A stretch of 64,000 bases of DNA from assembly GCA_965214835.1 (NCBI GenBank), contig CBDCCK010000002.1:128001-192000 (forward strand), in the 5' to 3' direction. How positions within the stretch are numbered: the stretch's first letter is position 1; the number at the start of each line of letters is the position of its first letter. Positions 1,038 through 20,208 of the stretch are shown in pieces. The notes beneath the pieces were generated by a model. That model made no database searches. It worked only from the letters and a program-made list of their open reading frames with translations, and was not told where the DNA came from. Origin of the DNA: Nitrosopumilaceae archaeon. Its GTDB lineage: Archaea > Thermoproteota > Nitrososphaeria > Nitrososphaerales > Nitrosopumilaceae. Position numbers and translations under genes: made by a program.

Positions 1038-1871
1038 TCAGATCATGCATTCGCTGCCGCAGGGGCTATCGACCCGGACGGACGGCAGTCCCTTCCCGCC
1101 CTTCATGATCCTGCCAAGCTCCCTCAGTGTGTAGCCCTTTGGCGCCAGGTGCTGCCTTCCAAAGTGCTTCCCGCCCTCCTCGAGCTCCACGGCCTGCCTG
1201 TACAGATCCGGGTGGTTTTCATGGATCTCGGCCCACCTTTCCATGCTGTTGAACGGGCACATCGTGCATCCGCTCTTTACGGGAACCGCAAGTCCGGCAT
1301 CCCCTATCAGATCGATGCATCCCCTCCTGTCAATCCGCGAGTCAACCAGGGGATACAGGTTGGTTATCCAGTCCTCCCCCGACGGTTTCATCCTGCGGAC
1401 CTCGCCATAGTCTATCCCCATGTACTGGTATACGTGTGATTTCAGCGCGCGATAAAACGCGTGAATCGGGGTCACCTTCATGTCGCGCGTGCACCAGCGC
1501 CAGACCTGCGACGGAATAACCCTTCGCTTCTGGCACCGGTCTGACAGCGAGGTCTTGTTTCTGGTGCTGACAATTTCAAACGGTATGTCCCTCCTTTGTA
1601 GATATCCCTTCATCACCTTCAGGTACCCGTATGTCTCAGGCATCTCGTTGCCGGTATCAGAAAAGACCACATAGTCCAGGGGAAGCCCGTTGTTTACCAG
1701 GTGGATGATCATGGCAGTGGAATTGACTCCTCCACCATAGCTTGCCACGTATCTTGCATCGGACTCACGCTCCATTCCGACGGTGCTGAGGATCCTTTTC
1801 TGGATCACAGTCTGCCGTTCAGGGTTTAGCTTGCCTGCTCTTCTGCCTTTATGCATTCTATCCAGAATCAA
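1038..1871 (-). CDS. PAPS-reductase-like (adenine nucleotide alpha-hydrolase) protein of the mobile-element type
   Basis: PP-loop SYGGGVNST, VFSDTGNEMPETY, RWCTRDMK, KSGCTMCPF, C-terminal CGSEC; true start may be 1856 or 1775. Confidence 0.8.
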   Translation of the reverse strand: MILDRMHKGRRAGKLNPERQTVIQKRILSTVGMERESDARYVASYGGGVNSTAMIIHLVNNGLPLDYVVFSDTGNEMPETYGYLKVMKGYLQRRDIPFEIVSTRNKTSLSDRCQKRRVIPSQVWRWCTRDMKVTPIHAFYRALKSHVYQYMGIDYGEVRRMKPSGEDWITNLYPLVDSRIDRRGCIDLIGDAGLAVPVKSGCTMCPFNSMERWAEIHENHPDLYRQAVELEEGGKHFGRQHLAPKGYTLRELGRIMKGGKGLPSVRVDSPCGSECMI

Positions 1872-2100
1872 TAATTTTTGCTTAAAAACCGGGTTTTCTT
1901 ACGCAGAAATTTTGAATCGATTGGCAGACATGGCGTCATAACAGGCAGGGCTCTGGAAGTTAAGGCGTGAGTCTTGTCAAAGGCACCGCTCAAACATAAT
2001 TTGCGCCTAAAATGGCAGGTCATTTCCAGAACCATACTGCTGCCATCATCAGTACAGAAGAAACAACATCCTTATCATGTGTCATGCTGATCGTGATTAT

Positions 2101-3261
2101 ATGGGCGTGGATGCATGGCATGAGAGGATGGCAGAATGGCTGGGGATGAATCCTGCCCATAGGCCAAACCGCCTCGTCTGCGTGCTTGAGGACGGCGGCG
2201 GGGATGACGGTATACATGAGGACGCCAGGCGTCTGGGGGTCATGGCGTGTGATGTAGGTGACGAGAGATGGATGATGGCGCCGTCCTCACCTGCCGTCAT
2301 AACGGGCACGCATGATGAGATCTTCTCTAGGGCCCTCAACAGGGGATACGGGGTGCGAGCAGACATGTGGAACATGCAGTTCGGACTGCTCAACAATGAC
2401 TGCCTGTGGGTTGACGGGACGGACAGCGGGCTGCACGCAGCCCTGTCTGATCTGCGCAGCAGGCTTCCCACGTTTCGCACGCCGGAAACTGTAGATCCGT
2501 CACAGTGTCATACCCAAGACATTCCGATTCACGGGCTGTTCGGCACCGGTAACATGTCTGACATAGCCAGGTTCATGCCAAAAGACATGATAGATCAGGA
2601 CGGGTCAATCATTTTAGGTGATATATCTGACATAGCCAGGTTCATGCGGAGACCGGTGGACGGCTGGGAAGGGATACGACCGCCGGCAGGAAGACATCTT
2701 GGAACGCAATGGATTACCCTTGCCGAACACCTCTCCATGACAGAGCGTCTGATATCAGACGTGTGTCCTGCAGGCGTGCCGGACATTGGCTCTCTGAGGA
2801 CTGCTGCCAGGTACCACGACTACGGCAAGGCGCATCCGGAGTTTCAGCGGTGGCTCTTGCAGGGGCTCCCACAAAACGAACATGAGTCAAGGGCGGCCAC
2901 GGCATGGGCAAAGAGAAGACCAAAGGCGGCACTTGGCAGGATAGATTACAGTCACGAGATTGCAGGAGCGGGTGCTCTTCTGCGGCTCCACCCAGGGGAT
3001 CATCTGGCCGCATACCTCGTCATGTCGCACCACGGCAGGTTCAGATCAGACATACCGGATACCACAGGCAGTCTTCCAAGAACGGATCTGGGTGACGGGA
3101 TGGTGGCCGACGAGGTATCATTTATGGTGACATCAGAAGGATGGAGAAAGACATTCGGTGGACTCTACAGGAGGTACGGACCGTTCCTTTTGTCATATTA
3201 CGAGGCGCTGTTGCGCACAGCAGACATGATTGCAAGTGATTCGGATGAGCGCAGACAGTGA
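2101..3261 (+). CDS. cas3: Reduced type I-G (I-U) Cas3-like protein: degenerate helicase remnant + intact C-terminal HD nuclease
   Basis: PNRLVCVL, PAVITGTHDEIFSRALNRGYG...FGLLNNDCLWV match I-G Cas3 helicase motifs Ia/Ib/II region; HD domain TLAEHL...HDYGKA...SHE...SHHG...ADMIAS; Walker A, DExx and RecA2 absent. Confidence 0.8.
   Translation: MGVDAWHERMAEWLGMNPAHRPNRLVCVLEDGGGDDGIHEDARRLGVMACDVGDERWMMAPSSPAVITGTHDEIFSRALNRGYGVRADMWNMQFGLLNNDCLWVDGTDSGLHAALSDLRSRLPTFRTPETVDPSQCHTQDIPIHGLFGTGNMSDIARFMPKDMIDQDGSIILGDISDIARFMRRPVDGWEGIRPPAGRHLGTQWITLAEHLSMTERLISDVCPAGVPDIGSLRTAARYHDYGKAHPEFQRWLLQGLPQNEHESRAATAWAKRRPKAALGRIDYSHEIAGAGALLRLHPGDHLAAYLVMSHHGRFRSDIPDTTGSLPRTDLGDGMVADEVSFMVTSEGWRKTFGGLYRRYGPFLLSYYEALLRTADMIASDSDERRQ
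2557..2647 (+). repeat. 22-bp exact direct repeat (TCTGACATAGCCAGGTTCATGC, period 69) inside the cas3-like gene
   Basis: Copies at 2557-2578 and 2626-2647, both encoding SDIARFM. Confidence 0.9.
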
Positions 3262-4846
3262 TCTCCCAAGGGTATTTTCCAAAAAAGCCGTGCCGTTTTG
3301 GATTGCGGGGTTTGCCGTAACCTGCGCCATGCTGCAGATATTCGGCGGCGACCACCTGCGGCCGGGAAGCCCAGAGGAGGCAATAGCATTCATCACTGTA
3401 AACGTCGAGATACTGGTGACCATGCTGACGGTCACCATGGGCGTGACGCTTCTGGGCCTGCAGTTCAGAGCCCAATCCTATACCATGATGGCACTTGTTC
3501 GATACATCAAGGATCGCGTGGTGTACGGATTCATCTCCGTCTTTACGGCACTGATAGTCTTCAGCATGTCAGTCATGATAATTCCTGGAATAGATCCGGT
3601 AGCAGTCTCACCGTTTGCATTTGCCGGAACGTCGTTTTCAATCGTTTATCTTATAGGGTATGTCTATTACATGGTTCACGAAATCCAGCCTACGCGGACG
3701 ATGGCACACATCAAAACTCAGATAGACGGAATCAGGACATCGGAGATGATACCCGATATCATGGCAGGACGGGATACGGAGTCGGGCTGGATTGAGCGGT
3801 TTGTAGTATGGGAGCAGATAATGCTGCGTGCAGTGGAAACGGACAACCTTTACGTTTACCGGACAGGACTTGACGTCATCTTCGACAAACTCCACCGATG
3901 CCTGGAGGCCTGCAAGGACGACACAAGGGATCCGGTCTATGCATTCTTCTTCCAATACGTGTCGGCCGTAACGCTTGCAGGGGTCAGGGAAAACAGGGAC
4001 AGGTTCGTCAGAATAACAATGGACAAGCTGAAGACCGTGGACGAGGCGATTCCCGAAAGCCGTGACAAGTTCAGCTCGAGACGCATGATGGTGTTTCACA
4101 TGTGGCAGCATGTCATGAGGGAGTCGATACGAATTGGAAACGTCCGCATGTCGCATTACGGAATGCTCGTGATAAGACAACTTCTTGACAGATACCTCAA
4201 AAGGCATCCCAAGGATGCCGGGCACATCCTGACATTTTTCCACATGTACATGTCACGCGCAGTGGATACAGCCATCACAAACAACAACACCGACTATCTG
4301 TTTGACTACGTGAGGATCATTGGAGAGATGGTCTTTCCAGAGAGGCGAGCCGCCGACGAACACACCCCGCTTGAGGCCTGGATAATGATAATGAAATACG
4401 CGATCCGCACGGAACGCATAGGCATGCTTGAGTATGGCATAGGCAGGCTCTTTTCTGTCTTTGGGAGTGCCAAACATGGTACGGATGCCATAAAACACAC
4501 TCACCGCGCCATTGAGGCGGTGGCCATCGAATGTGGATCGGATGAAAGATGCGTGCGTGTCCTGATGGACTCGTATCGGAAGCTGCCGCCGGAGCGATGG
4601 CCGGTACGCGCGTGGAAGCACGTCATGTTTGACTCGATCCACTCTTCTAGGGATGTGATCTTTGATCTGTGTGTGAGTGCCATCCATGACGAGCTGTCAG
4701 ATTCGGATGCGGGGTTCTTTGCCGGGGTTGCACCGGAAATGAGGAGCAACTCCCGGTTGGGCGTGAGCATGCCATCTGAGAGAATACGGGAGATTGGCGC
4801 ACACATTGACATGTGCCTTCACAAATCGGGCGTTCCCCCGGACTGA
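3245..4846 (+). CDS. DUF2254-like multi-pass membrane protein with helical cytoplasmic tail
   Basis: Four N-terminal TM segments, TLLGLQFRAQSYT motif; overlaps the cas3-like stop codon. Confidence 0.6.
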   Translation: MSADSDLPRVFSKKAVPFWIAGFAVTCAMLQIFGGDHLRPGSPEEAIAFITVNVEILVTMLTVTMGVTLLGLQFRAQSYTMMALVRYIKDRVVYGFISVFTALIVFSMSVMIIPGIDPVAVSPFAFAGTSFSIVYLIGYVYYMVHEIQPTRTMAHIKTQIDGIRTSEMIPDIMAGRDTESGWIERFVVWEQIMLRAVETDNLYVYRTGLDVIFDKLHRCLEACKDDTRDPVYAFFFQYVSAVTLAGVRENRDRFVRITMDKLKTVDEAIPESRDKFSSRRMMVFHMWQHVMRESIRIGNVRMSHYGMLVIRQLLDRYLKRHPKDAGHILTFFHMYMSRAVDTAITNNNTDYLFDYVRIIGEMVFPERRAADEHTPLEAWIMIMKYAIRTERIGMLEYGIGRLFSVFGSAKHGTDAIKHTHRAIEAVAIECGSDERCVRVLMDSYRKLPPERWPVRAWKHVMFDSIHSSRDVIFDLCVSAIHDELSDSDAGFFAGVAPEMRSNSRLGVSMPSERIREIGAHIDMCLHKSGVPPD

Positions 4847-4858
4847 CGGAAATCTGCC

Positions 4859-5101
4859 ATGTCGGATTTGCGGTTTTTATGCAAAGCACGTACCGTAAGT
4901 GTGGCAGACAGGGACGACACGGATCCAAATGACAGGCTGGACAGGATCGAGGAAAGACTGGTCAGGCTGGAGGGCATGGTCAGGGACGGAGGTCTGCAGG
5001 GATCGCAGGCCGGCGCACCGGATTCGGAGCCGTCACGTGAAGGCATTGGGGATTTCATTTCGCATACAATAAGGCTGGAGCGCCTCATTGGAAGGGGATA
5101 G
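4859..5101 (+). CDS. Hypothetical small coiled-coil protein
   Basis: RLDRIEERLVRLE heptad; lies between two co-oriented genes. Confidence 0.4.
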   Translation: MSDLRFLCKARTVSVADRDDTDPNDRLDRIEERLVRLEGMVRDGGLQGSQAGAPDSEPSREGIGDFISHTIRLERLIGRG

Positions 5102-5897
5102 GACGTCACGCGGGGGAATCGCACAGTTGTCAGACAGCAGACAGGCCGACGGGAGCACGATAATCAACGACGACTGCATCGACGGGATGAGATCACTTGA
5201 CGACGGGTCGGTGGATCTGATAGTTACTGATCCCCCGTTTGCCATAGGCTTCGGGGCCAGAAGATCAAACTACAACCGCAGACCGGACAACGTCCTGGAC
5301 GGATACGGCGAAATCAGGCAAAGGGACTATCTTTCCTTCAGCCGGAGCTGGATCAGCGAGGCATATGGGGTTCTCAGGGAGTCCGGAAGCATGTTTGTCT
5401 TTTCGGGATGGAGCAACCTGAAGGACGTCCTGATTGCACTGGATGAGGCCGGTTTCATCACGGTCAACCACATAATCTGGAGATACCAGTTCGGGGTCGT
5501 TACAAAGAAAAGGTACGTCACATCCCATTATCACTGCCTCTATGTCTGCAAGGACGACAAAAAAAGAAGGTTCTACCCGGATTCCCGCTTCGGGCCCGGC
5601 AGCGAAAGGTACAGGGACATGGAGGACGTATGGTACATCAGGCGCGAGTACTGGAGGAACGAAAAGAAGACGCCCACCAAGCTGCCTTCGGAGATAATAA
5701 GAAAGATTCTCCAGTACGCAAGCAGGCCCGGTGATCTGGTCCTGGATCCCTTTCTGGGATCTGGCCAGGTGGCGGCAGTCAGCAAGGAGATGGGAAGGTG
5801 CTATCTGGGGTTTGAGATCATCAGGGAATACTTTGACTTTGCCAAAAGGCACATAGGGAAGACCCGGGCGCAGGAGACCTCAGGCAGCCGGTCATGA
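5088..5897 (+). CDS. Site-specific DNA methyltransferase (N6-A/N4-C, beta class), orphan
   Basis: Motif IV VTDPPF precedes motif I LVLDPFLGSG; TPTKLP. Confidence 0.92.
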   Translation: MEGDRTSRGGIAQLSDSRQADGSTIINDDCIDGMRSLDDGSVDLIVTDPPFAIGFGARRSNYNRRPDNVLDGYGEIRQRDYLSFSRSWISEAYGVLRESGSMFVFSGWSNLKDVLIALDEAGFITVNHIIWRYQFGVVTKKRYVTSHYHCLYVCKDDKKRRFYPDSRFGPGSERYRDMEDVWYIRREYWRNEKKTPTKLPSEIIRKILQYASRPGDLVLDPFLGSGQVAAVSKEMGRCYLGFEIIREYFDFAKRHIGKTRAQETSGSRS

Positions 5898-6030
5898 TGG
5901 CGGGGCAGGCCCGACCGCAGCGGGGATTCCGCTTTGCATGATCCGGATCCCGTGGTTGACAATTATTACTCGTTTTGTGATTAATTTTAAATCAAGCCTG
6001 CCAAGTCGCGTCATATAGATCTGACACGGG

Positions 6031-7820: not shown

Positions 7821-8367
7821 GCTTCAATGGGACCACGACATTATCGTCGCGGAAATGGATGATGGCGCCGTCTTCGCCTGCCGTCATAACGGGCTTCAAT
7901 GGGGCCGCAACTTTATCGTCGCGGAAAGATATAATGCGAGATTTAACACAGGAACTCGGAAACTTGCTTCAATGGGGCCGCAACTTTATCGTCGCGGAAA
8001 GGTCGGAACCATGGGACGGATTGGCGGGACGGGAGGACGCTTCAATGGGGCCGCAACTTTATCGTCGCGGAAAGGTCGGAACCATGGGACGGATTGGCGG
8101 GACGGGAGGACGCTTCAATGGGGCCGCGACATTACCGTCGCGGAAATTCGTGAGGGCCCTGGAAATGATGATGCGTATATCACAGCTTCAATGGGGCCGC
8201 GACATTACCGTCGCGGAAATAGCTTTCTGCATATGCCGTTACATGCATCGTCATTACGCTTCAATGGGGCCGCGACATTACCGTCGCGGAAATTGGGTAA
8301 TGACGTGACTACCATATCCCTGCAGGGCAACGCTTCAATGGGGCCGCGACATTACCGTCGCGGAAAT
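7821..8367 (-). CRISPR. CRISPR mini-array: 8 x 36-bp type I-G-like repeats, 7 spacers (36-38 bp)
   Basis: Repeats start at 7821, 7893, 7966, 8039, 8112, 8185, 8258, 8332; consensus GCTTCAATGGGGCCGCGACATTACCGTCGCGGAAAT (reverse complement ends ATTGAAGC). Degenerate repeat at 7821 marks the trailer, so the leader is to the right. Spacers 3 and 4 are identical. Confidence 0.97.
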
Positions 8368-8593
8368 ACTGCAATGCCGACAGGTTCGGCCATTGCCTGT
8401 GCGTGACAGGCATCTTTTTTGTACAGCCCTTGCGTTTTTCGCACCACACATGCCGCGATGGCATGCGTCCTCACACTCACATATAATACATTTTCAAGCG
8501 CCTCCTCACAGCGGTGGTACCCAGGATCCCTCGCATGCCACGCCTGCCGGTGACACCAGAGACATACGTGACGATCTGACGCATATGCAGGAT

Positions 8594-9992: not shown

Positions 9993-10026
9993 TTCAGAGG
10001 CAGCGGCGGGGAAGGAAGGGACTGGC

Positions 10027-10425
10027 TCACCGTATCTCGACTACCTTGGTCCTGACTATGGTGCTGCCGTCGGTCCCCGACGCATCCACTATGAGCGTTA
10101 TATGCGTGGCCCCTTCTGCGCCGTCCACTATTCCAGATATCAGTCCGGACGATCTTCCTGCGGGCAGGGAGGCGCCGGGCTGGTCCACTGCCAGATCAGA
10201 CGGGGTGCTGACCGACAGGCCGGATATGTCCACGTTGCCTATGTTGTGCAGCGAGTAGCTCAGCAGCACGTCGCCGGACTGGGACAGGCGCCTGGCCTCG
10301 GCGCTCACCTGCAGGTCAAGCCGGTCAATGTCAAACTGCCCGGAGCTGAATGCAACTGCCAGCACGACGGGAACGATGACGCCGGCCGCAAGAAAAATCG
10401 CCAGGTATTCAGAAGAGAGGTTCAT
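10027..10425 (-). CDS. Pilin-like/secreted protein
   Basis: N-terminal hydrophobic helix then beta domain with LHNIGNVDI; resembles 42178-42633 and 42702-43268. Confidence 0.6.
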   Translation of the reverse strand: MNLSSEYLAIFLAAGVIVPVVLAVAFSSGQFDIDRLDLQVSAEARRLSQSGDVLLSYSLHNIGNVDISGLSVSTPSDLAVDQPGASLPAGRSSGLISGIVDGAEGATHITLIVDASGTDGSTIVRTKVVEIR

Positions 10426-10928
10426 TTCCTTACGTACCTTTTCAGCCTGGAGACGGCGGCCAGTATCTCGTCCATGCTACGGCCCCCGACTACTGCGTGA
10501 TACCCGTACGCCTTGACGTCGCAGCCGCCGATGCGGATCTGGACGCGCGCAAACCTCTCGTTGGATCTTATGTATCCCGGGGCGCCGCGCAGCCTGTCTA
10601 GGTCCAGCATCCTGCCGTCAAAGGAGACGTGCGTCACCACGTACCGCACGGTGAACTTTTCGACGGTCCTGATCTTCATGCCGAGCCTTTTGAGCAGCGA
10701 GACGAACGCCCTTGCCGCGCCGACTGCCGCCTTCTCGGAGGTGGAGCCGACCGACGTCACCCTTCCGGAATCGTACAGGTATATCATGGCGCCGCCGGAC
10801 GGCACGTACAGGGCAGGAAGGCCGTTGGGGCGGTACTGGGCATCGCGGACGCTGCGGACTATGGCCTCCGGGTCGTGCCCGGATATCATGCCGGCGGCAA
10901 TTACGTTGTCCACCTTTACCATCATCAT
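10422..10928 (-). CDS. Divergent TATA-box-binding-protein (TBP)-like protein
   Basis: VDNVIA...YRPNGLPALY...LYDSGRVTSVGSTS (TBP repeat 1) and VRYVVT...LDLDRL...ERFARV...VVGGRS (repeat 2); 168 aa; ATGA overlap with the upstream gene. Confidence 0.7.
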   Translation of the reverse strand: MMMVKVDNVIAAGMISGHDPEAIVRSVRDAQYRPNGLPALYVPSGGAMIYLYDSGRVTSVGSTSEKAAVGAARAFVSLLKRLGMKIRTVEKFTVRYVVTHVSFDGRMLDLDRLRGAPGYIRSNERFARVQIRIGGCDVKAYGYHAVVGGRSMDEILAAVSRLKRYVRK

Positions 10929-11329
10929 TTCCCGGGATTCTCCATCCTCCTCTTGACGATGATCGACCTGACGGCCTCTATGTTGTTGGCAACGGCGCAC
11001 AGGTGGATCATGCCGACAAAGAACGGCAGGAACGCGTCGGCCATTATGACGTACCATCCGAGGCAGACCGCTATGCCTGCCGAGAATATCACCATGATTG
11101 CATGGTACGGGCCCATGTGGCGGCGGAGGATGCCGAACATGGCGTTCTTCTCGTACCGTTCAAAGTCGCGCACCCGTATGGTGGTAAAGGCGTCAGCCGC
11201 AAAGCAGACCGTGTAAAACGACATGGCCACTGCCATCCCGTGGCCGCCAAGCAGCGTGTGCGCAAACACCCCGGTCACAAACGAGAAGGAAAGCGTTATG
11301 ATTCCGATAAAAAGGGGGATGAGGTTCAT
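10925..11329 (-). CDS. Multi-pass membrane protein in transfer operon
   Basis: Four hydrophobic segments; translationally coupled to the TBP-like gene. Confidence 0.7.
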   Translation of the reverse strand: MNLIPLFIGIITLSFSFVTGVFAHTLLGGHGMAVAMSFYTVCFAADAFTTIRVRDFERYEKNAMFGILRRHMGPYHAIMVIFSAGIAVCLGWYVIMADAFLPFFVGMIHLCAVANNIEAVRSIIVKRRMENPGK

Positions 11330-11338
11330 GCCGGGCTC

Positions 11339-11698
11339 TCACCTGGCACGTGCCACGTATGCTGTAGTACCGGCTGCCGCCGTCCGCATCCTGGCGGCGC
11401 AGTGTCTGCACGGAGTGTCCATGCGAAGGGTTATTCCGACCATGACGGATCCGCCTATGATGACCAGGTATATTGCCATCTGCATGTACACCTTCATCTC
11501 AGAAAAGAAGTCAGTCATGAATCCGCCGAAGATCCTGTCGTCCTCGTCGGCCAGATCCGTCGTGTCGACTGCAAACAGGCTGTCGGCCGCATAAAGTGAT
11601 CCCGCTATGATCACGATGCCGATTATCATGTACATCGGCGATCCGCGTAGCGCGTCTGACAGATCCTCGCCCTTTCGTTTTTCTATCATGGAATCCAC
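11339..11698 (-). CDS. 2-TM membrane protein in transfer operon
   Basis: Two TM helices, directly downstream of the VirD4-like gene. Confidence 0.6.
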   Translation of the reverse strand: MDSMIEKRKGEDLSDALRGSPMYMIIGIVIIAGSLYAADSLFAVDTTDLADEDDRIFGGFMTDFFSEMKVYMQMAIYLVIIGGSVMVGITLRMDTPCRHCAARMRTAAAGTTAYVARAR

Positions 11699-11712
11699 AG
11701 GACGGTTAGAAT

Positions 11713-14709
11713 TTAAACCCTAGATTGACTGTCTTCCCTCTTTTTTCCCATCCTGTACAGGTGCGCCCTGCCGCCCTTCCTCATGCGTATGGCATACCCC
11801 ATATCGGCTATCTGGCCTGCGATATAGTCGACCTCGTCGCGCTTTGAGGGATCGTTCCTGTTGGATTCCCACATCTGCAGGAGCCGCTGGCAGTGCAGCC
11901 GCTCGGCGTCTGCCTGCGGGCGGTCCCCGTCACCGTCGTCCTCCTTTGCTACAGCCGCTGCTGCTGCTTCTGCGTCATGCGGCCCGTCCTCGCAGTCCGG
12001 AGCCGGAAGCGCCGGAATCCTTTCCTGCGCGGCATCTGCTGCAGTGGTGGCGTCGTTGCCGTCATTATCACCGTCGGCATCGACATCAGCTGCATCCGTT
12101 GTGGCATCTGCAAATGTCACCGGTCCGGCGGATTCTTCTGCGGTATCCGGAGTGCCGTGGGGGATATGAGAACCGGACGGGGTCGCCGCCTCCGCTGCAG
12201 GCTGCTGCCCGGAGCCCTCATTCGCGACACCGCCGCCATCATCTGCGGTGTCGCCGGCATCCGCAGGCCGCCGTCCCGCCTTCAGGTGCTCATACCATCC
12301 GGCCTTGTTGTACGTGTCAACCCTGTCAGTGTCACGACCGCTGGCGACGGCCCCGTCCCTGGCAGCTGTATGGAGGGGGACCGGATCATCATCGTTCTGG
12401 CCGCCACCGTCCGCGTCTCCGCCGCCGGCATCAGCAGGGGGCGACACGCTGCCGCGTCCCCTGTACAGCACGTCCATGTCCTCGGGCCCGAGATCGCCGG
12501 ACTTGTCGGGGAGCAGCGGCCTGACTCCCGGCAGCGACCAGACGACATACAGCGACGGATCCTGCACGCGCCTGCCGTCCGCATCTCCGCCCCGGCCGGT
12601 GATGCCGCTCCTTTCCAGCCTGCCTTCCAGCCCCTGCAGCGACGCGATGACGTCTGCCTCGTCAAACTGCCATACTGAGTCGCAGACGAACCGCTGGGTG
12701 GCAGTCCCGCCTGCGCCCGAGAGCACCTCCATGATGCGGGCCTCACAGGCCGACATTGATCTTATGTTCTCGGATTTCGTATCAGTCAGGTGTGTCCTGT
12801 CCATTACCGTGAGCCGGTACTTGTCGCGCGAGACGCCGTTCTGCTTCATTGTATCGTGCATCCTCTCGGCCGTTGCCGCATCAAAGACGACAAACCAGAC
12901 TGAGTGGCCCAGCGCAGACGACTTTTGCCAGTTTACATACACCTGCTCCCAGTGCTTGCCTGGCCCCGTCTCGACCTCGACTGCCGTGATATCATCAGAC
13001 CACTCCGACGGGTTGAACAGTACGTCTTTGCGGCCGTCCCTGTCCCTGACGGGCTTGGGCGAGTATATCACGAGGTCTGCCTGCTTGGCCGCCCCCCTCC
13101 CGAGATCGGGAACGCAGTACCTCCCGTTGTTGACGTTGATCTCCATTATGGCAAATATGGCAGACAGGTGGAGGTCCCCTCCGGCCCTGCGGCCTGCGGC
13201 CGACCTCGAGAACAGGTTGTGCATGGCAGACTTTGTTATGGTGTATCTTGACTCGAACTTTTCGTCGCCGTCATCGCTTACCGTGTCGTGCTGGGAGACG
13301 TACCCGTTTGTGGCAATCAGCGTGTCGTGCAGCGCCGAGGAGACGTGCCGGGCGTCAGTCGCGTACCTGCGCAGCATGGCATCCGTTATCTCCTTTTTTG
13401 TCATGTCTCGGCTTTCTGTGCGCAGCAGGTTGAGTATCCCGAACTCCAGCGGCGTCAACTGCACGTCTGCGCCCCCGCCGCTCTGCGTGTAGTATTTGTC
13501 AAGGGAGACGAACTTGCCCAGCCGCATGACGCTGTGCCGCGAGGCCTCCTCGGAGCGGTCAGGTATCTCCATGTGGCGCGTCTTTGCCACCGCCTTTACC
13601 GGATTCGTGCCCCCCGACCAGAACGAAAAGTGGTGGAACGGCAGCTGCGTCTGCCGCTCGGGCTTTATCGGCAGTATGGACTTGAGCGAGGCGGCAGTCG
13701 TCGCGTCGCACCTGAAACAGGCGATTGCGCGGCACAGCGTCGGCAGCTCGGCTGCAAACTCGCGCTCTATGGCAGACGTTGACTGGGTGGCAATGGTCGC
13801 CTTGATGCCGTACTTGCGGACGGTATTGAGCAGCTCCCTGATCATGGGCTCTGAGAACATCTGCACCTCGTCCAGGTACAGGTTAAACGGCGCAAACCCC
13901 CCGCCGGGCTGGCGCTGTCTCTTGAGGTACGCGGTATAGAACAGGTGAAGAAACACGTTTCCCAGAAACTTTGTCATGTCGTTTGTCACCCCGCCAAAGT
14001 CCAGCACCACGTACATTCCCCGGTTCAGTATGTCCTCAAACGTTATGGAGGAGCGGCGCGTGTTGAACATCGCATCAAGCTCCGGGACGGTAAGCATCTT
14101 GTTGAGCTTGTTGAAGATGACGCCGCCTGCCTCCTTTGGATACTGCTCCCAGTATACCCTGGTGAAAAAGTCGCGGGCCTGCCGGTTCTGTATCTGTCCG
14201 ACGAACCCCTCGGAGAACTCCTTGTCCGTAAGAAGGCGGATCATGGCGCCAAGCGTGTCTGACTGCGTCCCGATTACGGCAAGTGCGCCGTTTCTGGCGC
14301 ACGTCTCCACGCGGGCCCCCCACGAGTCCGAGAACGCCTTTGCCAGGCATTCTGTGAACGTCAGCGAGACCATTCCCGCCTCGTGGGGATCGTCTATCTG
14401 CAGCGGGTTGAACCTTAGCGTCTTGTCAAGCTTCTTGATCGAGGAGAGGCTGACGTACACTATCCGGTCGTACTGCTCTGGCGGTATCAGCGAGAGGACC
14501 TCGCGGGACAGCTCCGAGTGGTTCTCTGCAAGCAGAAAGCCCCTTCCGGCCTTGATATCCTGCAGGATGAGCAGCCTCAGGACGCTTGACTTGCCGGAGC
14601 CTATCTCGCCGAGTATCAGCATGTTCTGCCGGGCCCTGTACGGCATCGTGAGGACCTTGCGGCCTGCCAGGTATCCGATTACCGAGTGATCGTGCGGGTT
14701 GACCGACAT
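11713..14709 (-). CDS. VirD4/TraD-like coupling ATPase fused to wHTH and PD-(D/E)xK-like domains
   Basis: Walker A GEIGSGKS, Walker B LYLDEVQ, RKYGI..TIATQ; C-terminal half ADLVIY...TAVEVETG; acidic low-complexity tail. Confidence 0.8.
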   Translation of the reverse strand: MSVNPHDHSVIGYLAGRKVLTMPYRARQNMLILGEIGSGKSSVLRLLILQDIKAGRGFLLAENHSELSREVLSLIPPEQYDRIVYVSLSSIKKLDKTLRFNPLQIDDPHEAGMVSLTFTECLAKAFSDSWGARVETCARNGALAVIGTQSDTLGAMIRLLTDKEFSEGFVGQIQNRQARDFFTRVYWEQYPKEAGGVIFNKLNKMLTVPELDAMFNTRRSSITFEDILNRGMYVVLDFGGVTNDMTKFLGNVFLHLFYTAYLKRQRQPGGGFAPFNLYLDEVQMFSEPMIRELLNTVRKYGIKATIATQSTSAIEREFAAELPTLCRAIACFRCDATTAASLKSILPIKPERQTQLPFHHFSFWSGGTNPVKAVAKTRHMEIPDRSEEASRHSVMRLGKFVSLDKYYTQSGGGADVQLTPLEFGILNLLRTESRDMTKKEITDAMLRRYATDARHVSSALHDTLIATNGYVSQHDTVSDDGDEKFESRYTITKSAMHNLFSRSAAGRRAGGDLHLSAIFAIMEINVNNGRYCVPDLGRGAAKQADLVIYSPKPVRDRDGRKDVLFNPSEWSDDITAVEVETGPGKHWEQVYVNWQKSSALGHSVWFVVFDAATAERMHDTMKQNGVSRDKYRLTVMDRTHLTDTKSENIRSMSACEARIMEVLSGAGGTATQRFVCDSVWQFDEADVIASLQGLEGRLERSGITGRGGDADGRRVQDPSLYVVWSLPGVRPLLPDKSGDLGPEDMDVLYRGRGSVSPPADAGGGDADGGGQNDDDPVPLHTAARDGAVASGRDTDRVDTYNKAGWYEHLKAGRRPADAGDTADDGGGVANEGSGQQPAAEAATPSGSHIPHGTPDTAEESAGPVTFADATTDAADVDADGDNDGNDATTAADAAQERIPALPAPDCEDGPHDAEAAAAAVAKEDDGDGDRPQADAERLHCQRLLQMWESNRNDPSKRDEVDYIAGQIADMGYAIRMRKGGRAHLYRMGKKREDSQSRV

Positions 14710-14721
14710 CGGCCGGGCCCC

Positions 14722-16563
14722 TCACCTCGGCCTGAACAGCTCCAGCTGCTCCTGGTCGGGAAGCACGTCGACCGGGACCACGGAGTTGCCAAAGCGCACG
14801 AGCGCCTGCCCGCGCCGCATCCGCATCAGCCAGTTGCTCATCTCGCCAGACAGCACAAAGTGCTCGTTGAGGGCGCGCGACGTGGCCTCGGACTGGCGCA
14901 GAAACATCACGGTGTCCGAGTTGACCAGGACGTTGCGGGCCGCCTCGTTTGCTGTCATGTCCTCGATGTTCTGCGTTGCCATGAGCATGTTGATGTTGTA
15001 CTTTCTTCCTCGGCGGGAGAGGTGCTGTATATAGTCTCCCAGCGGCCCGTGCTGGAGGAGCATCCACACCTCGTCGAGCATGAACAGCTTGGGGACTGTC
15101 TTTGACATCATCAGCGAGCGGCCAAGCGCGTACGACAGAGCTATCTGGGTTATCAGGCGGTGGACCGTCCCGCCCGCGGAGCCCACGTTCTTGAGGGAGA
15201 GTATGACGCGCTTTGTGTCCGGCGCCATGCCCCGGAAAAAGTCCTCGTACGGGTGGTGGCACAGCATCCTGAACTGGCCGAGCACCTGCCTGTCCTCGGG
15301 CTCCGTGTGCTTTTCCACCGCATCCACAAATCTGAAAAAGCTGCGCTCCTCCATCGGCATGTTCGACATGTCGGTGGCCGCCATGTTCGCGGGCATCCTC
15401 TTTTCCTCGGGTATGAGCAGCGCGTCGCACAGCGTCTCGGAGGCCGCAAAGGCGTCGGGCACCATCCGGAATAAATCGAGGCCCATCTGCTTGCCCGTCG
15501 AATAGTCCAGGTACGTAAAGCCCATCGAGTCGCCCAGCGCGCGGTACTCGGACTCGGGGTCTATCCCGAATATGAACGCCTCCGGATACATCCGGTCAAA
15601 GGCGTGTATTATCATCATTGCAAGCGTCGTCTTGCCGGATCCTGACAGCGCCGCAAGCACGGTGTTGCGGTTTATGCGGTTGTTGATGTTCCACCGGAAC
15701 GGGTTGCCGGTTACCGTATTGACTCCGAGCAGTATGCCGCCGTCCTCGTAGAGCTCCGACGTCGAGAACGGGACGAGCGCCGCAAAGGTCTCCGTTATGG
15801 CAAGCATCTGCTGGCCCTGCTCCCCTGCAAGCATCTGCGACTGGACGTGGCGCGCAGTCTCCACCCCGGGTACCCCGCGCATGTCTGCCTCGAATACGCG
15901 GGCGCGCTCCCTCAGCTTCTGGTAGTCAAGGGCAAACACCAGCGGTATTATCCGCATCGTATACAGCGACGTCTGGTTTCCGGTTATCATCTCCTTGATT
16001 GCCCGCGCGCTTGCGGCCACGTCGACGCCGCTTGCCGACGAGTCCGTGCTTGAGGAGGCCATGTGGCTTGCAACAACGGAATGCCGCTTTTCGGGTGGGA
16101 TCGGGTTCACGAACATCCTGACGGCATCGGCCTTGGAGTATATGCCGTATATCCACCCTGGGGGCAGCTCGTCGGCAAGCATCCCGATGGTGTACGCCTT
16201 GCAGTATATCCCCGACTTTAGCACGGTACAGTCGGTGTGCTCCCTCTCGACGTCCCATCGGCGGACCTCCGCCGGGCCCGACGATATCGGGGCGACGATA
16301 TGTTCTGCCTCCTTTTCTGCGGTTGTCAGCATGACAGTATCCATCGGGCACCTGCGGACCGTCTTGTTGAATGACAGCTCCTCATAGTCGCGTATGACGT
16401 CCACCGTGAACGGCTCGCGCAGCCTTGAGAGCACGCCGGTATAGTTTGACACCAGGACGTCGCGCTCTGAAACGTCCGATACGGTGCTCTCCGGGTTTGA
16501 GAACATGATGTTTATCGGGCTCAGCCTGAATGCCCTGGGCTTGCCGCGCGTCCTTTTTGGCAT
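14722..16563 (-). CDS. VirB4-like conjugation ATPase
   Basis: GILLGVN, NRN..ALSGSGKT (Walker A), IDPESEY, FMLDEVW (Walker B), RRGRKYN..MATQ. Confidence 0.88.
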   Translation of the reverse strand: MPKRTRGKPRAFRLSPINIMFSNPESTVSDVSERDVLVSNYTGVLSRLREPFTVDVIRDYEELSFNKTVRRCPMDTVMLTTAEKEAEHIVAPISSGPAEVRRWDVEREHTDCTVLKSGIYCKAYTIGMLADELPPGWIYGIYSKADAVRMFVNPIPPEKRHSVVASHMASSSTDSSASGVDVAASARAIKEMITGNQTSLYTMRIIPLVFALDYQKLRERARVFEADMRGVPGVETARHVQSQMLAGEQGQQMLAITETFAALVPFSTSELYEDGGILLGVNTVTGNPFRWNINNRINRNTVLAALSGSGKTTLAMMIIHAFDRMYPEAFIFGIDPESEYRALGDSMGFTYLDYSTGKQMGLDLFRMVPDAFAASETLCDALLIPEEKRMPANMAATDMSNMPMEERSFFRFVDAVEKHTEPEDRQVLGQFRMLCHHPYEDFFRGMAPDTKRVILSLKNVGSAGGTVHRLITQIALSYALGRSLMMSKTVPKLFMLDEVWMLLQHGPLGDYIQHLSRRGRKYNINMLMATQNIEDMTANEAARNVLVNSDTVMFLRQSEATSRALNEHFVLSGEMSNWLMRMRRGQALVRFGNSVVPVDVLPDQEQLELFRPR

Positions 16564-16608
16564 GTACCCTGCGACACGGCAGATATCATATAAAGCTGGA
16601 TTGGGGCC

Positions 16609-17694
16609 TTACGGTCCGTGCCCGTCGACGGAGCAGTTGTACTCTGCTGCTGCCGCGTTGTAGCTGTCGACTGCGTCGTTGTAGCTGTCCCCCAGGCGGT
16701 CATGGCCGGCGGCGGCCTCCTCCATCTGCGCCTCGACGCCCCTTATCCTTTCCAGAAGATCCCCGAGCTGGACGTACAGCGATTCTGCCTGCCCGTGGTC
16801 TCCTGCTCCTGTTGCGGCTGCGGCCAGCCGCTCGTACCTGCCGCCAAGCTGCTCGTACCGCTCCACGAGCCTCCCGTGCTCTGTCTCCATGCGATCAAGA
16901 CTCCTGACGATTCCGTCCATTTCTTCCTCAAGCCCTGCCATCTGCGACTCTGATGCCTGCATCCTGGCAAGTATCGGGGTTACCGCGTCAAACTGCAGGT
17001 GCTCGGCTGCCTGCGGTATGTCGTACCCGAGATCGTCAAAGGATTCCGGCAGTACACCCGGCGGGTCGCGCGTCCCGTACATCAGGTGGGACTCGTCTGT
17101 GACGTGTCCCAGTCCCAGGTGGTGGCCCAGCTCGTGGGCTATGGTGTCTGCCATCATCTCCCCGGAGTACGGGCGGAACGTGCCGTCGCACCACGGCCTG
17201 CCGGTCTCGACTGTTATCGTTGCAGGCCGGCCCGGAAGCGACGGGTGCTCGTACAGCCCGACTGTATCGCCCTCTATCCTGTCTGTAAGCACTATCACGA
17301 CGTCGCCGTCTGCCACATCCCCCACCAGGCGTACCGTTCCCGGATTGTCAGCGTTCCACATGGCGGCCGCCTGCCTTGCGGCAGCACCGGCTGCAGCAGC
17401 AGCAGCGGCGGCGGCGGCACCGTCTCCTGCCGACTCCCGGTCGACTGCCATTCTTACCGGAGGCCCGCCGCTCTCCTGGGCGCCGGCATTGACGGATGCG
17501 TGATGATGCGCCGGAGGCTGCCTGTCATGCGCGCCCGGCTCCACCGCGCTCTGCTGCCTGTCTGCGGCAGTCTCCCCCGGCCCGGCCCCGCCGCCGTCCG
17601 TGCCTCCTCCCGTGCCGCTTATCCCGAACCACGCGATTCCGGATATCACCGCGACCACTATGATCCCGGTTATTATTCCAGACATGCCATACAT
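16609..17694 (-). CDS. Membrane-anchored matrixin-type zinc metalloprotease with C-terminal coiled coil
   Basis: HELGHHLGLGH zinc motif, Met-turn HLMY, N-terminal TM helix. Confidence 0.85.
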   Translation of the reverse strand: MYGMSGIITGIIVVAVISGIAWFGISGTGGGTDGGGAGPGETAADRQQSAVEPGAHDRQPPAHHHASVNAGAQESGGPPVRMAVDRESAGDGAAAAAAAAAAGAAARQAAAMWNADNPGTVRLVGDVADGDVVIVLTDRIEGDTVGLYEHPSLPGRPATITVETGRPWCDGTFRPYSGEMMADTIAHELGHHLGLGHVTDESHLMYGTRDPPGVLPESFDDLGYDIPQAAEHLQFDAVTPILARMQASESQMAGLEEEMDGIVRSLDRMETEHGRLVERYEQLGGRYERLAAAATGAGDHGQAESLYVQLGDLLERIRGVEAQMEEAAAGHDRLGDSYNDAVDSYNAAAAEYNCSVDGHGP

Positions 17695-17867
17695 GAGGCA
17701 TTCCCGCTATTAAGGCCCGTGGCATGCCCGGGACAGTTGCGCGTTTATATCGAATTTGCTGTACGGATGGCAGGCCGCCGCCAAAAACATTCATTCGTTC
17801 ATTCTGGCGATGTTCTCACGTGCGGCGGTGGTCCCGCATTCCGCATGGCTGCCGTCGTTGCCGGCGG

Positions 17868-19805: not shown

Positions 19806-20208
19806 GCAGCAGGCGCCAGTGCCGCTCCACGTCTGCGTACATTCTCCGGCTGTCCCGGGCCCAGTGCGGCGCGGTACTGCACTGGAAGCGCACGATCATT
19901 CTGTGGGGCGAGGTCTGGCGGCGCGGATGCGGGTTCACGTCTGCGTACCTTCTCCAGTCGTCCCGGGCCCAGTGTGGTGCTTTATCGCACCGGAGGCGCA
20001 CGATCATCTTGTGGGGCGAAAGTGGGGGGAGGCGGCTCCGCGCTGTTGTAACCGGGACACCGGCATGTCCGTTACGATACACGGTACTGCGTCCGGCGGT
20101 ATTGCCGTATGCATCTACCGGCACACCGCTGCCGCCGTCCCACTCTGGGTGTGCCTCCCTGGCCGCCTTTTTTTCTGTCCGTTTTTTCGTGTCCGGCATT
20201 ATGAGCAT
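19783..20208 (-). CDS. Hypothetical protein with 36-aa tandem repeat
   Basis: 108-bp imperfect tandem duplication (copies start 19828 and 19936) encoding SPHxMIVR..C..APHWARD..RxYADV. Confidence 0.45.
   Translation of the reverse strand: MLIMPDTKKRTEKKAAREAHPEWDGGSGVPVDAYGNTAGRSTVYRNGHAGVPVTTARSRLPPLSPHKMIVRLRCDKAPHWARDDWRRYADVNPHPRRQTSPHRMIVRFQCSTAPHWARDSRRMYADVERHWRLLRAGRRRG

What the first reader, a model, noticed from the sequence alone, without database searches (positions are those of the whole stretch)
2101..3261. Helicase-dead, nuclease-intact miniature type I-G Cas3
Seen: an open 386-aa ORF keeps I-G Cas3 helicase motifs Ia/Ib (PNRLVCVL; GTHDEIFSRALNRGYG...FGLLNNDCLWV) but lacks Walker A, the DExx box (reads WVDG) and the RecA2 domain. 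All expected HD metal ligands remain (EHL, HD, SHE, SHHG, AD). No other cas gene is in the window. Known: I-G Cas3 carries HD at the C-terminus and is much longer. Inference: multiple in-frame deletions plus synonymous divergence from the spacer-donor allele suggest purifying selection for a new role, for example a non-processive nickase recruited by host Cascade, a dominant-negative anti-CRISPR decoy, or a stand-alone defence nuclease coupled to the overlapping DUF2254-like membrane gene and MTase.
Basis: partly seen in the sequence, partly recalled or inferred. Interest (0 to 1): 0.75.

Follow-up and report, generated by a model that had tools for sequence, protein, structure and literature searches.

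The report
Helicase-less mini Cas3g nuclease on ICE
This archaeal gene is an intact, conserved, shrunken version of the type I-G CRISPR enzyme Cas3 that has lost its motor but kept its DNA-cutting domain, and here it sits on a conjugative-element-like island next to a small stand-alone CRISPR array.

Summary
Window 2101-3261 (+) is an intact 386-aa gene. Its product keeps two blocks of type I-G Cas3 (Cas3g): a RecA1 remnant without P-loop or DExH box, and the complete HD nuclease with every metal ligand.

It is not a decaying copy of the resident cas3g (846 aa, 2.36 Mb away, only 28-43% identical). It belongs to a small, discrete family of 324-386 aa found in Nitrosopumilus-type archaea. That family is separated from full-length Cas3g by a long branch and evolves under purifying selection (dN/dS 0.13; 17 of 22 listed strain differences are synonymous).

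In this genome and in one other (G001), the gene lies in a homologous ICE-like island (VirB4/VirD4 pair). Both islands also carry a stand-alone I-G-type mini CRISPR array. The oldest spacer of the window's array matches mini-cas3g with two synonymous mismatches and no TTN PAM. In three other genomes the gene is solitary between housekeeping genes, and no I-G genes were found.

Best reading (0.45): an ATP-independent, non-processive ssDNA or R-loop nuclease that works without Cascade. Main rival (0.35): a Cas3 mimic that docks on host I-G Cascade. The proposed coupling to the DUF2254 and MTase genes is not supported, because a related strain lacks that cassette.

The parts
2101..3261 (+). mini-cas3g coding sequence (386 aa; an upstream in-frame ATG at 2077 would give 394 aa)
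2101..2460 (+). RecA1 remnant (about aa 1-120). It is homologous to Cas3g residues ~55-190, has no P-loop, and the motif II position reads WVDG.
   Evidence: The fold matches SF2 RecA1 domains at Z 6.3-7.3.
2270..2305 (-). Protospacer matching the oldest spacer of the window's array. It matches at 34 of 36 positions. Both mismatches (2286, 2289) are synonymous. The flank reads TGC, not TTN.
   Evidence: A related strain has G at 2289, as in the spacer.
2548..2647 (+). In-frame tandem duplication (two 31-nt copies 69 nt apart). It adds 23 aa to a low-confidence linker and is absent from the 15 other family members aligned.
   Evidence: (family D6)
2704..3258 (+). HD nuclease domain (aa ~202-386) with all metal ligands
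   Evidence: Cas3-HD 8wth at Z 12.4, rmsd 3.3 over 152 residues
7821..8367 (-). Stand-alone I-G-type CRISPR array: 8 repeats of 36 nt and 7 spacers (6 unique). The terminal repeat at 7821-7856 is degenerate.
7857..7892 (-). Oldest (trailer-end) spacer, which matches mini-cas3g
8368..8520 (-). Putative leader of the array. It resembles the sequence upstream of the array in L001.
   Evidence: flanks printed; the similarity was judged by eye
3317..5915 (+). Strain-variable cassette (DUF2254-like membrane protein and N6/N4 DNA methyltransferase). Not part of the conserved unit.
   Evidence: joint 3316->5916 in runs X6 and X7
1038..1871 (-). Divergently oriented PAPS-reductase/SspD-like gene. This neighbour is found only in this locus.
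10422..16563 (-). Conjugation-type module of the island: TBP-like gene, VirD4/TraG-like gene (11713-14709) and VirB4-like gene (14722-16563). Homologous to the module beside the G001 copy.

Best explanation
What is shown. Window 2101-3261 encodes a functional member of a small protein family that I call mini-Cas3g. It derives from the type I-G Cas3 helicase-nuclease by loss of the N-terminal ~55 residues (P-loop) and of about 360 internal residues (motif II, RecA2 and the following region).

What remains is:
- a ~120-aa RecA1 remnant that keeps the Cas3g-specific SRALNRGYG / FGLLNND block;
- a poorly ordered linker;
- the complete HD nuclease domain.

The gene is an accessory gene. Here and in G001 it is cargo of homologous ICE-like islands that also carry a stand-alone I-G-type mini CRISPR array. 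In three Nitrosopumilus-type genomes it is a solitary chromosomal gene.

Inferred mechanism. Without any ATPase it cannot translocate. It most likely binds exposed single-stranded DNA through the retained RecA1 surface and cuts it with the metal-dependent HD site. That would make it a non-processive ssDNA or R-loop endonuclease. It would act on its own, without Cascade, on incoming, competing or transfer-intermediate DNA.

Confidence. I put about 0.9 on the gene being real, intact and selected, and 0.45 on the Cascade-independent mechanism.
For: Family and selection:
- 15 same-length homologues (355-386 aa, 36-54% identity, 95-99% coverage).
- 11 family clusters of 324-372 aa scoring 276-589 bits among 1.84 billion representatives. 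The next best are full-length Cas3g at 180 bits or less.
- All 25 family rows sit on one side of a branch of length 1.44, SH-aLRT 99, in a quick HD-domain tree.
- dN/dS between L002 and L004 is 0.13 at dS 0.64. The N-terminal part gives 0.15 and the HD part 0.10.
- 17 of 22 listed differences to a related strain are synonymous.

Catalysis:
- The HD ligands are invariant in 19 of 19 members.
- The AF2 model has pLDDT 80.8 and pTM 0.85.
- The HD domain matches Cas3-HD at Z 12.4. The N-terminal domain matches SF2 RecA1 domains at Z 6.3-7.3.

ssDNA binding:
- The block most similar to Cas3g is the motif Ib region. It is 43% identical to the resident Cas3g over 49 aa, against 28% in the HD domain. 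It stays nearly invariant in the mini family.

Independence from Cascade:
- G001-G004 gave no match to Cas3g above cut-off, Csb2 or Cas7g. G000 served as a positive control for Cas7g.
- No I-G protein matched by tblastn in 81 kb around the G001 copy.
- In L002-L004 the gene lies directly between rpl21e/rpoF/DUF655/ksgA and PDCD5-like/S19e/Rpr2/Nep1 genes.
Against: - In both ICE-like contexts (2 of 2) the gene lies within 5.5-7.7 kb of an I-G-type mini-array.
- The window's host has a complete I-G system with nearly the same repeat.
- In the one I-G system studied biochemically, Cas3 is a stable Cascade subunit bound through Cas8g (PMC9638904, passages read). A Cas3g derivative could therefore keep that contact.
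- G002-G004 are incomplete MAGs (G004 is 85% complete).
- A paper on sponge Thaumarchaeota reports CRISPR arrays and cas genes in those species (PMC6697440, passages read; its supplementary figure could not be seen). Absence of I-G is therefore firm only for G001.
- No nuclease activity, substrate or expression has been measured.
Confidence: 0.45

Rival explanations
1. Cas3 mimic at host I-G Cascade. The ICE-borne mini-Cas3g docks on Cascade in place of full-length Cas3g. One outcome is poisoning of interference against the ICE (an anti-CRISPR by subunit mimicry). The other is conversion of Cascade into a nick-only effector, which the ICE's own mini-array directs against rival elements.
For: - It derives from Cas3g. 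In the Thioalkalivibrio I-G system, Cas3g binds Cascade stably via Cas8g and, without ATP, nicks the non-target strand once (PMC9638904).
- The gene and an I-G-type array with a homologous leader are kept together in two diverged ICE-like islands. VirD4 is 55% identical and mini-Cas3g 43% identical between them.
- The window's array repeats differ from the host's 148 identical repeats by 2-4 bases, with compensatory stem changes.
- MGE-encoded Cas homologues that poison Cascade are known: AcrIB3 and AcrIB4 (bioRxiv 10.1101/2023.06.24.545427, passages read).
- Orphan methyltransferases, typical anti-restriction cargo, lie nearby.
- A main-array spacer matches the assembly's own second contig 36 of 36, next to GTTC. 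Such a match would be tolerated if interference were inhibited.
Against: - G001, a chromosome-level assembly, keeps an intact gene and array but has no I-G effector genes.
- The solitary chromosomal copies are under purifying selection in genomes where no I-G genes were found.
- A pure decoy would not need all the HD ligands to stay invariant.
- The protein is only 28-43% identical to the host's Cas3g.
Confidence: 0.35
2. DNA-processing nickase of the conjugative element. The HD nuclease nicks or processes ICE DNA for transfer or integration, filling the place of the relaxase that has not been found in archaeal ICEs.
For: - It lies in two homologous islands with a VirB4/VirD4 pair.
- The survey of thaumarchaeal ICEs found no relaxase candidates (PMC6563490, passages read).
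Against: - The gene also occurs as a solitary gene with no conjugation genes within about 8 kb in L002-L004.
- It sits in the variable cargo region, not inside the conjugation module.
- It was not found in 398 of 400 other genomes of the family. How many of those carry ICEs was not counted.
Confidence: 0.07
3. Stand-alone defence module together with the overlapping DUF2254-like membrane protein and the methyltransferase.
For: The genes are adjacent and on the same strand in the window. The ORFs overlap by 32 nt if the TTG at 3230 is the start.
Against: - No homologue of either neighbour lies within 10 kb of the gene in L001-L004.
- In runs X6 and X7 a 95-99% identical strain joins 3316 to 5916. 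It skips both genes while keeping mini-cas3g.
- The DUF2254-like protein has no PADLOC match.
Confidence: 0.05
4. Decaying remnant of a cas3g gene with no function.
For: - It lacks more than half of Cas3g.
- One family member (P0048) has a frameshifted C-terminus.
- The window's copy carries a 23-aa duplication.
Against: - The same truncated architecture recurs at 35-58% identity in 18 other members.
- dN/dS is 0.13, and 17 of 22 listed strain differences are synonymous.
- The catalytic residues are invariant.
- The frame is open, with no stops.
Confidence: 0.03

Closest known systems
Type I-G Cas3 (Cas3g, TIGR02621)
   Same: - Clear common ancestry in two blocks: Cas3g residues ~55-190 and ~550-end.
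- The HD domain is at the C-terminus.
- The same motif Ib block and the same HD ligands are present.
   Different: - No P-loop, no DExH box and no RecA2, so no ATPase or helicase activity is possible.
- 386 aa against 710-1114 aa.
- Scores 184 bits against a cut-off of 400.
- Not in a cas operon.
- Forms a separate clade.
Cas3'' stand-alone HD nucleases of split type I systems (e.g. MJ0384, TIGR01596; names recalled, PDB titles)
   Same: - An HD nuclease without a helicase in the same polypeptide.
- The fold matches Cas3-HD structures 8wth (Z 12.4), 7tr8_Q (Z 9.0) and 3skd (Z 7.1).
   Different: - Cas3'' is encoded next to a Cas3' helicase and Cascade genes and works with them.
- Mini-Cas3g has an extra RecA1 remnant and no cas neighbours.
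- It scores below the TIGR01596 cut-off (39.1 against 43.45).
Cas-derived anti-CRISPRs on mobile elements (AcrIB3, AcrIB4, AcrVIA2; bioRxiv 10.1101/2023.06.24.545427)
   Same: - An orphan cas homologue on a mobile element.
- It forms its own clade apart from the real Cas protein (paper passages).
   Different: - The Cas3-derived Acrs in that paper keep the helicase and lack the HD domain. This protein is the reverse.
- No inhibition has been tested.
- Some family members are chromosomal.
Stand-alone CRISPR arrays on thaumarchaeal ICEs (Krupovic et al. 2019, PMC6563490) and virus-borne mini-arrays (PMC6858448, abstract listing only)
   Same: - An array without cas genes inside an ICE-like island.
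- Repeats close to those of a host array that has cas genes.
- A spacer that matches a gene of a related element.
   Different: - Those ICE arrays carry type I-B-type repeats.
- No Cas3-like gene is mentioned with them ('Cas3' occurs 0 times in that paper).
- Here the array travels with a Cas3g derivative.

Membership tests
Type I-G Cas3 (Cas3g, TIGR02621) | Whole-protein score above the curated cut-off (400 bits) | tested here: not met
   184.3 bits. The resident full-length Cas3g scores 630 bits.
Type I-G Cas3 (Cas3g, TIGR02621) | SF2 helicase core with P-loop (motif I), DExH (motif II) and a RecA2 domain | tested here: not met
   Only profile positions 112-172 and 664-853 of 854 are matched. 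hmmsearch maps the protein to Cas3g ~55-190 and ~550-end. The motif II position reads WVDG and is not conserved in the family.
Type I-G Cas3 (Cas3g, TIGR02621) | C-terminal HD nuclease with the metal ligands | tested here: met
   hhalign probability 100 over residues 198-383. The ligands are invariant in 19 of 19 members. Z is 12.4 to Cas3-HD 8wth.
Type I-G Cas3 (Cas3g, TIGR02621) | Encoded in an operon with cas8g, cas7g (csb1) and csb2 | tested here: not met
   The I-G operon lies at C2:2494182-2500639, 2.36 Mb away. No such genes are near any of the five copies.
Cas3'' stand-alone HD nuclease (TIGR01596 / Pfam PF18019) | Matches the Cas3 HD models above their cut-offs | tested here: inconclusive
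   PF18019 scores 27.1 bits against a cut-off of 23.1, so it is met. TIGR01596 scores 39.1 bits against 43.45, so it is not met.
Cas3'' stand-alone HD nuclease (TIGR01596 / Pfam PF18019) | Partnered with an adjacent Cas3' helicase gene and Cascade genes | tested here: not met
   No helicase or Cascade gene was found in the neighbourhoods.
Cas-derived anti-CRISPR (AcrIB3/AcrIB4-like) | Orphan cas homologue on a mobile element, in a clade apart from the bona fide Cas protein | tested here: met
   ICE-like island with a VirB4/VirD4 pair in the window and in G001. Separate clade. However, three copies are chromosomal with no MGE genes nearby.
Cas-derived anti-CRISPR (AcrIB3/AcrIB4-like) | Inhibits the cognate CRISPR-Cas system | not testable with these tools
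   Needs an interference assay.
ICE-borne stand-alone CRISPR array (as in PMC6563490) | Array inside an ICE without adjacent cas genes, with repeats (nearly) identical to a host array that has cas genes | tested here: met
   The array at window 7821-8367 lies between ICE-type genes. Its repeats differ by 2-4 of 36 bases from the 148-repeat host array beside the I-G genes. In G001 the host has no matching array. No integrase or att sites were found, so the island's borders and mobility are not shown.

The most novel reading that the evidence does not exclude
The ICE carries a two-part kit for exploiting CRISPR. One part is a stand-alone I-G-type mini-array. The other is a helicase-less Cas3g that takes the Cas3 seat on the host's I-G Cascade. 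This would blunt processive destruction of the ICE itself (anti-CRISPR by subunit mimicry). It would still leave an ATP-independent nick at targets chosen by the ICE's own spacers, such as the mini-cas3g allele of a rival ICE. That would be a mobile-element-encoded re-programming of a host type I effector.
Probability: 0.25. Interest if true: 0.85.

Novelty: new variant of a known kind. Interest (0 to 1): 0.62.

Why it matters
Cas3 is the signature enzyme of type I CRISPR systems, and its nuclease has been understood as working with a helicase, either fused or as a partner.

This family is conserved and under selection, yet it keeps only half of one RecA domain plus the HD nuclease. It travels on conjugative-element-like islands beside stand-alone arrays. 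It has also become fixed as a solitary gene in some sponge-associated ammonia-oxidising archaea.

It is therefore either a new exaptation of a Cas nuclease outside CRISPR or a new kind of mobile-element counter-measure aimed at Cascade. Either outcome can be tested with one purified protein and a published I-G reconstitution system.

A natural ATP-independent, Cascade-compatible nickase would also interest genome-editing work.

I found no description of such a protein in the full-text searches made. One paper lists 'Cas3' among gene families shared by sponge Thaumarchaeota (PMC6697440). That may be this gene, but I could not check its supplements.

Tried and rejected
- Complex prediction of the host's Cas8g2 (alignment A3, 14 rows) with mini-Cas3g (A2, 19 rows) gave no verdict (score 0.00, mark 0.32, controls not run). 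This counts neither for nor against binding.
- Foldseek against the PDB gave no match at E <= 0.001. The best was Cas3-HD 8wth at E 0.13. The VIA-align wide search was used instead.
- The viral-contig scan found that 0 of 22 candidate stretches encode a relative.
- The metagenome-contig scan found 210 relatives and kept 80. None of the 80 spans both blocks. They cover either the HD part or residues 39-157 of ordinary Cas3g-like genes, so no extra DNA of the mini family was gained.
- Phage-integrase search of the own genome: the nearest weak hit is at C2:24537, about 100 kb from the gene. No tRNA lies in the 20 kb upstream. The borders of the island remain undefined.
- I thought the linker motif (LFD...SDIARFM) matched a Cas3g motif after RecA2. 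hmmsearch gave only insignificant hits there (i-E 1 and 3.7, in 2 of 16 proteins), so I dropped the idea.
- The PAM could be read from only one protospacer (main-array spacer to C1), and the reading is ambiguous. It is TTC with a 36-nt match and an unmatched first spacer base, or GTT with 37 nt. I read it as TTC because TTN is the published I-G PAM.
- Whether the related strain carries a TTN-creating base at 2307 or the spacer's base at 2286 could not be read. One search lists only the best-supported differences (61 are not shown).
- The look-up of sequencing runs listed no RNA holder, so nothing can be said on expression.
- DNA searches of two same-genus genomes with 40 kb around the gene returned only methyltransferase fragments and CRISPR repeats. 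This fits an accessory island, but diverged core genes might also escape such a search.
Main-array spacers hit only C1.
- The subtype of G001's own CRISPR-Cas locus was not determined with family models. It has Cas1, a 713-aa Cas3-like ORF and 74 repeats of a different sequence.
- The tree is the quick tree (SH-aLRT only), because the careful search did not finish. It used the last 190 or 240 residues only, and P0048 (frameshifted) was left out.
Full report
**The gene and its motifs.** The reported ORF is real. Frame +1 is open from 2077 to 3261 (394 aa). Every quoted motif is in the translation.
- NCBIfam's type I-G Cas3 model (TIGR02621) matches at E 5.5e-54 but only 184 bits against a curated cut-off of 400. 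It matches in two stretches.
- On the genome these stretches are profile positions 112-172 and 664-853 of 854.
- PADLOC's Cas3g models agree (159.7 bits, two stretches).
- Pfam sees only Cas3_HD (27.1 bits, cut-off 23.1).

**What is left of Cas3g.** I built a profile of the family and searched it against 16 full-length Cas3g proteins.
- It aligns to Cas3g residues ~55-190 and ~550-end and nowhere else with significance. The library-wide search gave the same picture.
- The first ~55 residues (P-loop) are missing. So is everything from motif II through RecA2 and the region behind it, about 360 residues.
- The motif II position reads WVDG in the window and is not conserved in the family.
- The remnant keeps the Cas3g-typical PRRLV strand and the SRALNRGYG / FGLLNND block (consensus lines).
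- The HD ligands are invariant in all 19 aligned members: H210, H239-D240, H285, H310-H311 and D375.
- An AlphaFold2 model from that alignment is confident (pLDDT 80.8, pTM 0.85), apart from the linker at residues 140-200.
- Residues 202-386 superpose on Cas3-HD structures: 8wth at Z 12.4, rmsd 3.3 over 152 residues, and the type I-A Cas3 HD subunit 7tr8_Q at Z 9.0.
- Residues 1-138 superpose on the first RecA domain of SF2 helicases at Z 6.3-7.3, which is in the range where only a shared arrangement can be claimed.
- The window's copy has a private in-frame 23-aa duplication in the linker.

**Not a decayed copy of the host's cas3g.**
- The same genome holds a complete type I-G locus 2.36 Mb away. 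It runs cas4-cas1, an array of 148 identical repeats, an IS630 transposase, cas3g (846 aa, 630 bits), cas8g2, cas7g and csb2.
- The mini protein is only 28% identical to that Cas3g in the HD domain and 43% identical over 49 residues of the N block.
- Fifteen proteins of 355-386 aa cover 95-99% of the query at 36-54% identity.
- Among 1.84 billion cluster representatives there are 11 such clusters (324-372 aa, 276-589 bits). Below them the scores drop to 180 bits or less for proteins of 710-1114 aa.
- In a quick maximum-likelihood tree of the HD domain, all 25 mini rows lie on one side of a branch of length 1.44 (SH-aLRT 99). The tree holds 25 mini and 52 full-length rows. The careful search did not finish and the frameshifted P0048 was left out.
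- One member, P0048, is frameshifted in its C-terminal third. The others are intact.

**Selection.**
- For the one pair whose synonymous divergence is not saturated (L002 against L004, dS 0.64), dN/dS is 0.13. The N-terminal part gives 0.15 and the HD part 0.10. Other pairs are saturated.
- Contigs of two public runs (X6, X7, one study) carry a 95-99% identical strain. Of the 22 listed differences inside the gene, 17 are synonymous and 5 are not. One search shows only the best-supported differences.

**Where the family occurs.**
- Among species representatives of 185,579 species, only four loci cover the whole protein. All are in records titled Nitrosopumilus sp. or Nitrosopumilaceae (L001-L004). 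The other 30 loci are parts of ordinary Cas3g.
- None was found in viral contigs. None of the 80 kept metagenome loci spans both blocks.
- In 400 other genomes of the window's own family, the mini gene was found in 2. By their coordinates these are the places already held as L001 and L004.
- In a sample of 400 other genomes of the order it was found in none.

**Genomic context falls into two classes.**

*First class: ICE-like islands (the window and L001, genome G001).*
- In the window these genes include a VirD4/TraG-like protein (11713-14709), a VirB4-like protein (14722-16563), a TBP-like protein, an actin-like ParM-type protein 8 kb upstream, and three N6/N4 methyltransferases.
- The two islands are homologous. 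VirD4 is 55% identical over 745 aa, VirB4 50%, ParM-like 47.5% and mini-Cas3g 43%.
- A VirB4/VirD4 pair is the signature of thaumarchaeal ICEs in the published survey (PMC6563490, passages read).
- I found no integrase or att sites, so I call it ICE-like only.
- Two same-genus genomes share almost nothing with 40 kb around the gene.

*Second class: solitary chromosomal copies (L002, L003, L004).*
- The gene lies directly between rpl21e-rpoF-DUF655-ksgA on one side and PDCD5-like, S19e, RNase P Rpr2 and Nep1 on the other.
- No mobile-element genes lie within about 8 kb.
- In the window's genome those two housekeeping clusters are 408 kb apart.

**The mini CRISPR arrays.**
- The window has 8 repeats of 36 nt at 7821-8367 with 7 spacers, 6 of them unique.
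- On the minus strand the repeat ends in ATTGAAGC. The repeat at the 7821 end is degenerate. An AT-rich promoter-like stretch lies beyond the other end. I therefore take the leader to be on the right and 7857-7892 to be the oldest spacer. This orientation rests on those three features and on general knowledge of type I repeats.
- The repeats differ at 2-4 of 36 positions from the host's main array. The changes keep the stem paired.
- L001 has a 7-repeat array (1769-2240) of the same repeat family. It shares the same ends, has a different but still paired stem, has a degenerate last repeat, and has a similar upstream sequence.
- It lies 7.7 kb from the mini gene, between the conjugation module and the gene, as in the window.
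- G001 has no other repeat of this kind except one solitary motif.
- It gave no match to Cas3g above cut-off, Csb2 or Cas7g (with G000 as positive control).
- No I-G protein matched in 81 kb around the gene.
- Its own CRISPR-Cas locus, 320 kb away, has a quite different repeat.
- Stand-alone arrays on thaumarchaeal ICEs with host-like repeats have been described. That paper does not mention Cas3 ('Cas3' occurs 0 times).

**The spacer match.**
- The oldest spacer of the window's array matches the minus strand of mini-cas3g at 2270-2305 in 34 of 36 positions. It matches nothing else in the genome at up to 8 mismatches, and so not the full-length cas3g.
- Both mismatches are synonymous third positions of serine codons (TCC/TCT and TCA/TCG).
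- The related strain in runs X6 and X7 carries the spacer's base at one of them (2289 A>G). Alleles closer to the donor therefore exist.
- The only other protospacer I could find (a main-array spacer against contig C1) is flanked by GTTC. I read this as TTC, in line with the published TTN PAM of type I-G (PMC9638904).
- The resident target is flanked by TGC. A single synonymous change of the adjacent glycine codon would give TTC.
- The spacer was therefore taken from a mini-cas3g allele of a related element. The resident copy is not expected to be attacked. This part is inference.

- The DUF2254-like ORF (Pfam 37.9 bits, N-terminal part only) and the methyltransferase (139.6 bits) are real, but they are not partners.
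- No homologue lies near the gene in L001-L004.
- In X6 and X7 a contig joins 3316 to 5916 with 42 other letters between. This removes both genes while keeping mini-cas3g.
- The upstream divergent gene is a PAPS-reductase/SspD-like protein (PADLOC SspD 116.7 bits). It too is found only in this locus.

**Mechanism.**
- Shown: there is no ATPase, the HD site is complete and invariant, the motif Ib block is strongly conserved, both halves are under purifying selection, and the gene is mobile-element cargo in two genomes and solitary in three.
- Inferred: the protein binds single-stranded DNA with the RecA1 remnant and cuts it with the HD site without translocating.

I put 0.45 on this happening without Cascade, for these reasons:
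- Four of the five carrier genomes show no I-G effector genes. One of them is a chromosome-level assembly.
- The solitary copies are clearly under selection.
- A motif that stays almost identical between the mini family and very diverse Cas3g proteins is more likely to touch DNA than a fast-evolving Cas8g.

I put 0.35 on a Cas3-mimic role at host I-G Cascade, at least for the ICE-borne copies, for these reasons:
- Gene and array are kept together in two diverged islands.
- The window's host has a matching I-G system.
- In the studied I-G system Cas3 is a stable Cascade subunit that nicks once without ATP.
- Cas-derived anti-CRISPRs that poison Cascade are known.

The co-folding attempt with Cas8g2 gave no verdict and counts for nothing.

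A caveat on the absence data: G002-G004 are incomplete. A paper reports CRISPR arrays and cas genes in sponge-associated Nitrosopumilus species and lists 'Cas3' among their shared gene families (PMC6697440). That 'Cas3' may be this very gene. Its supplementary figure and table were not available to me.

**Novelty.** The protein fails the membership tests for Cas3g (helicase core, cut-off, operon) and for Cas3'' (partner genes). It works, as far as sequence can tell, like a Cas3 HD nuclease. It is a new variant of a known kind. Full-text searches found no description of it: 'orphan/solo/truncated/mini Cas3' and similar phrases; viral cas genes; type I-G Cas3; sponge Thaumarchaeota Cas3.

Two tools that might have added names or earlier notes were unavailable.

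Noticed in passing
G000 C2:2485135-2485172 (main array) and C1:6366-6401: One of the 147 main-array spacers matches the assembly's 13-kb second contig 36 of 36, next to GTTC. The target lies inside a 1270-aa glycosyltransferase gene. The contig also holds an IS66 transposase, a methyltransferase and a laminin-G protein, and shows no terminal overlap. It may be a self-target, a strain-variable piece or another replicon.
   Followed up: partly
window 1038-1871 (-): Solitary PAPS-reductase-type gene whose best match is PADLOC SspD (116.7 bits; also BrxP and DndC). No other Ssp or Dnd genes were seen nearby.
   Followed up: partly
window 3317-5915: A 2.6-kb cassette (DUF2254-like membrane protein and N6/N4 methyltransferase) is replaced by 42 other letters in a 95-99% identical strain (runs X6, X7). 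The same strain's contig departs from the window at 7812, just before the array.
   Followed up: partly
window 8002-8038 and 8075-8111: The same spacer occurs twice in the mini-array. The array also mixes two repeat subtypes (4 + 3) plus a degenerate terminal repeat. This suggests recombination rather than recent acquisition.
   Followed up: no
L001 16164-16251 and 17298-17387: Two copies of tRNA-Ile(GAT) lie 1.1 kb apart with a 193-bp tandem repeat between them, 5 kb from the G001 mini gene. This could be an attachment-site duplication.
   Followed up: no
L043 16538-19324 (-) (C2:124538-127324): A 928-aa protein with fibronectin-III and HYR domains (eukaryote-like repeat domains) lies inside the accessory region just upstream of the window.
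   Followed up: no
window 10001-20000: The conjugation-type genes lie in a stretch of 60-63% G+C, against 52.6% for the chromosome.
   Followed up: no
window 48244-48317 and 54875-54969: ARAGORN reports a tRNA with an undetermined two-base anticodon and a 95-nt tRNA-Ile, which may contain an intron.
   Followed up: no
G096 C1:1716654-1719317: A same-genus genome holds a CRISPR array whose repeats resemble those of the window. The mini gene was not found in that genome.
   Followed up: no
L044 8864-12001 (-) (C2:2500864-2504001): Next to the I-G operon lies a 1045-aa UvrD/PcrA-type helicase with a C-terminal Cas4-like nuclease domain (TIGR00372, 67.5 bits).
   Followed up: no
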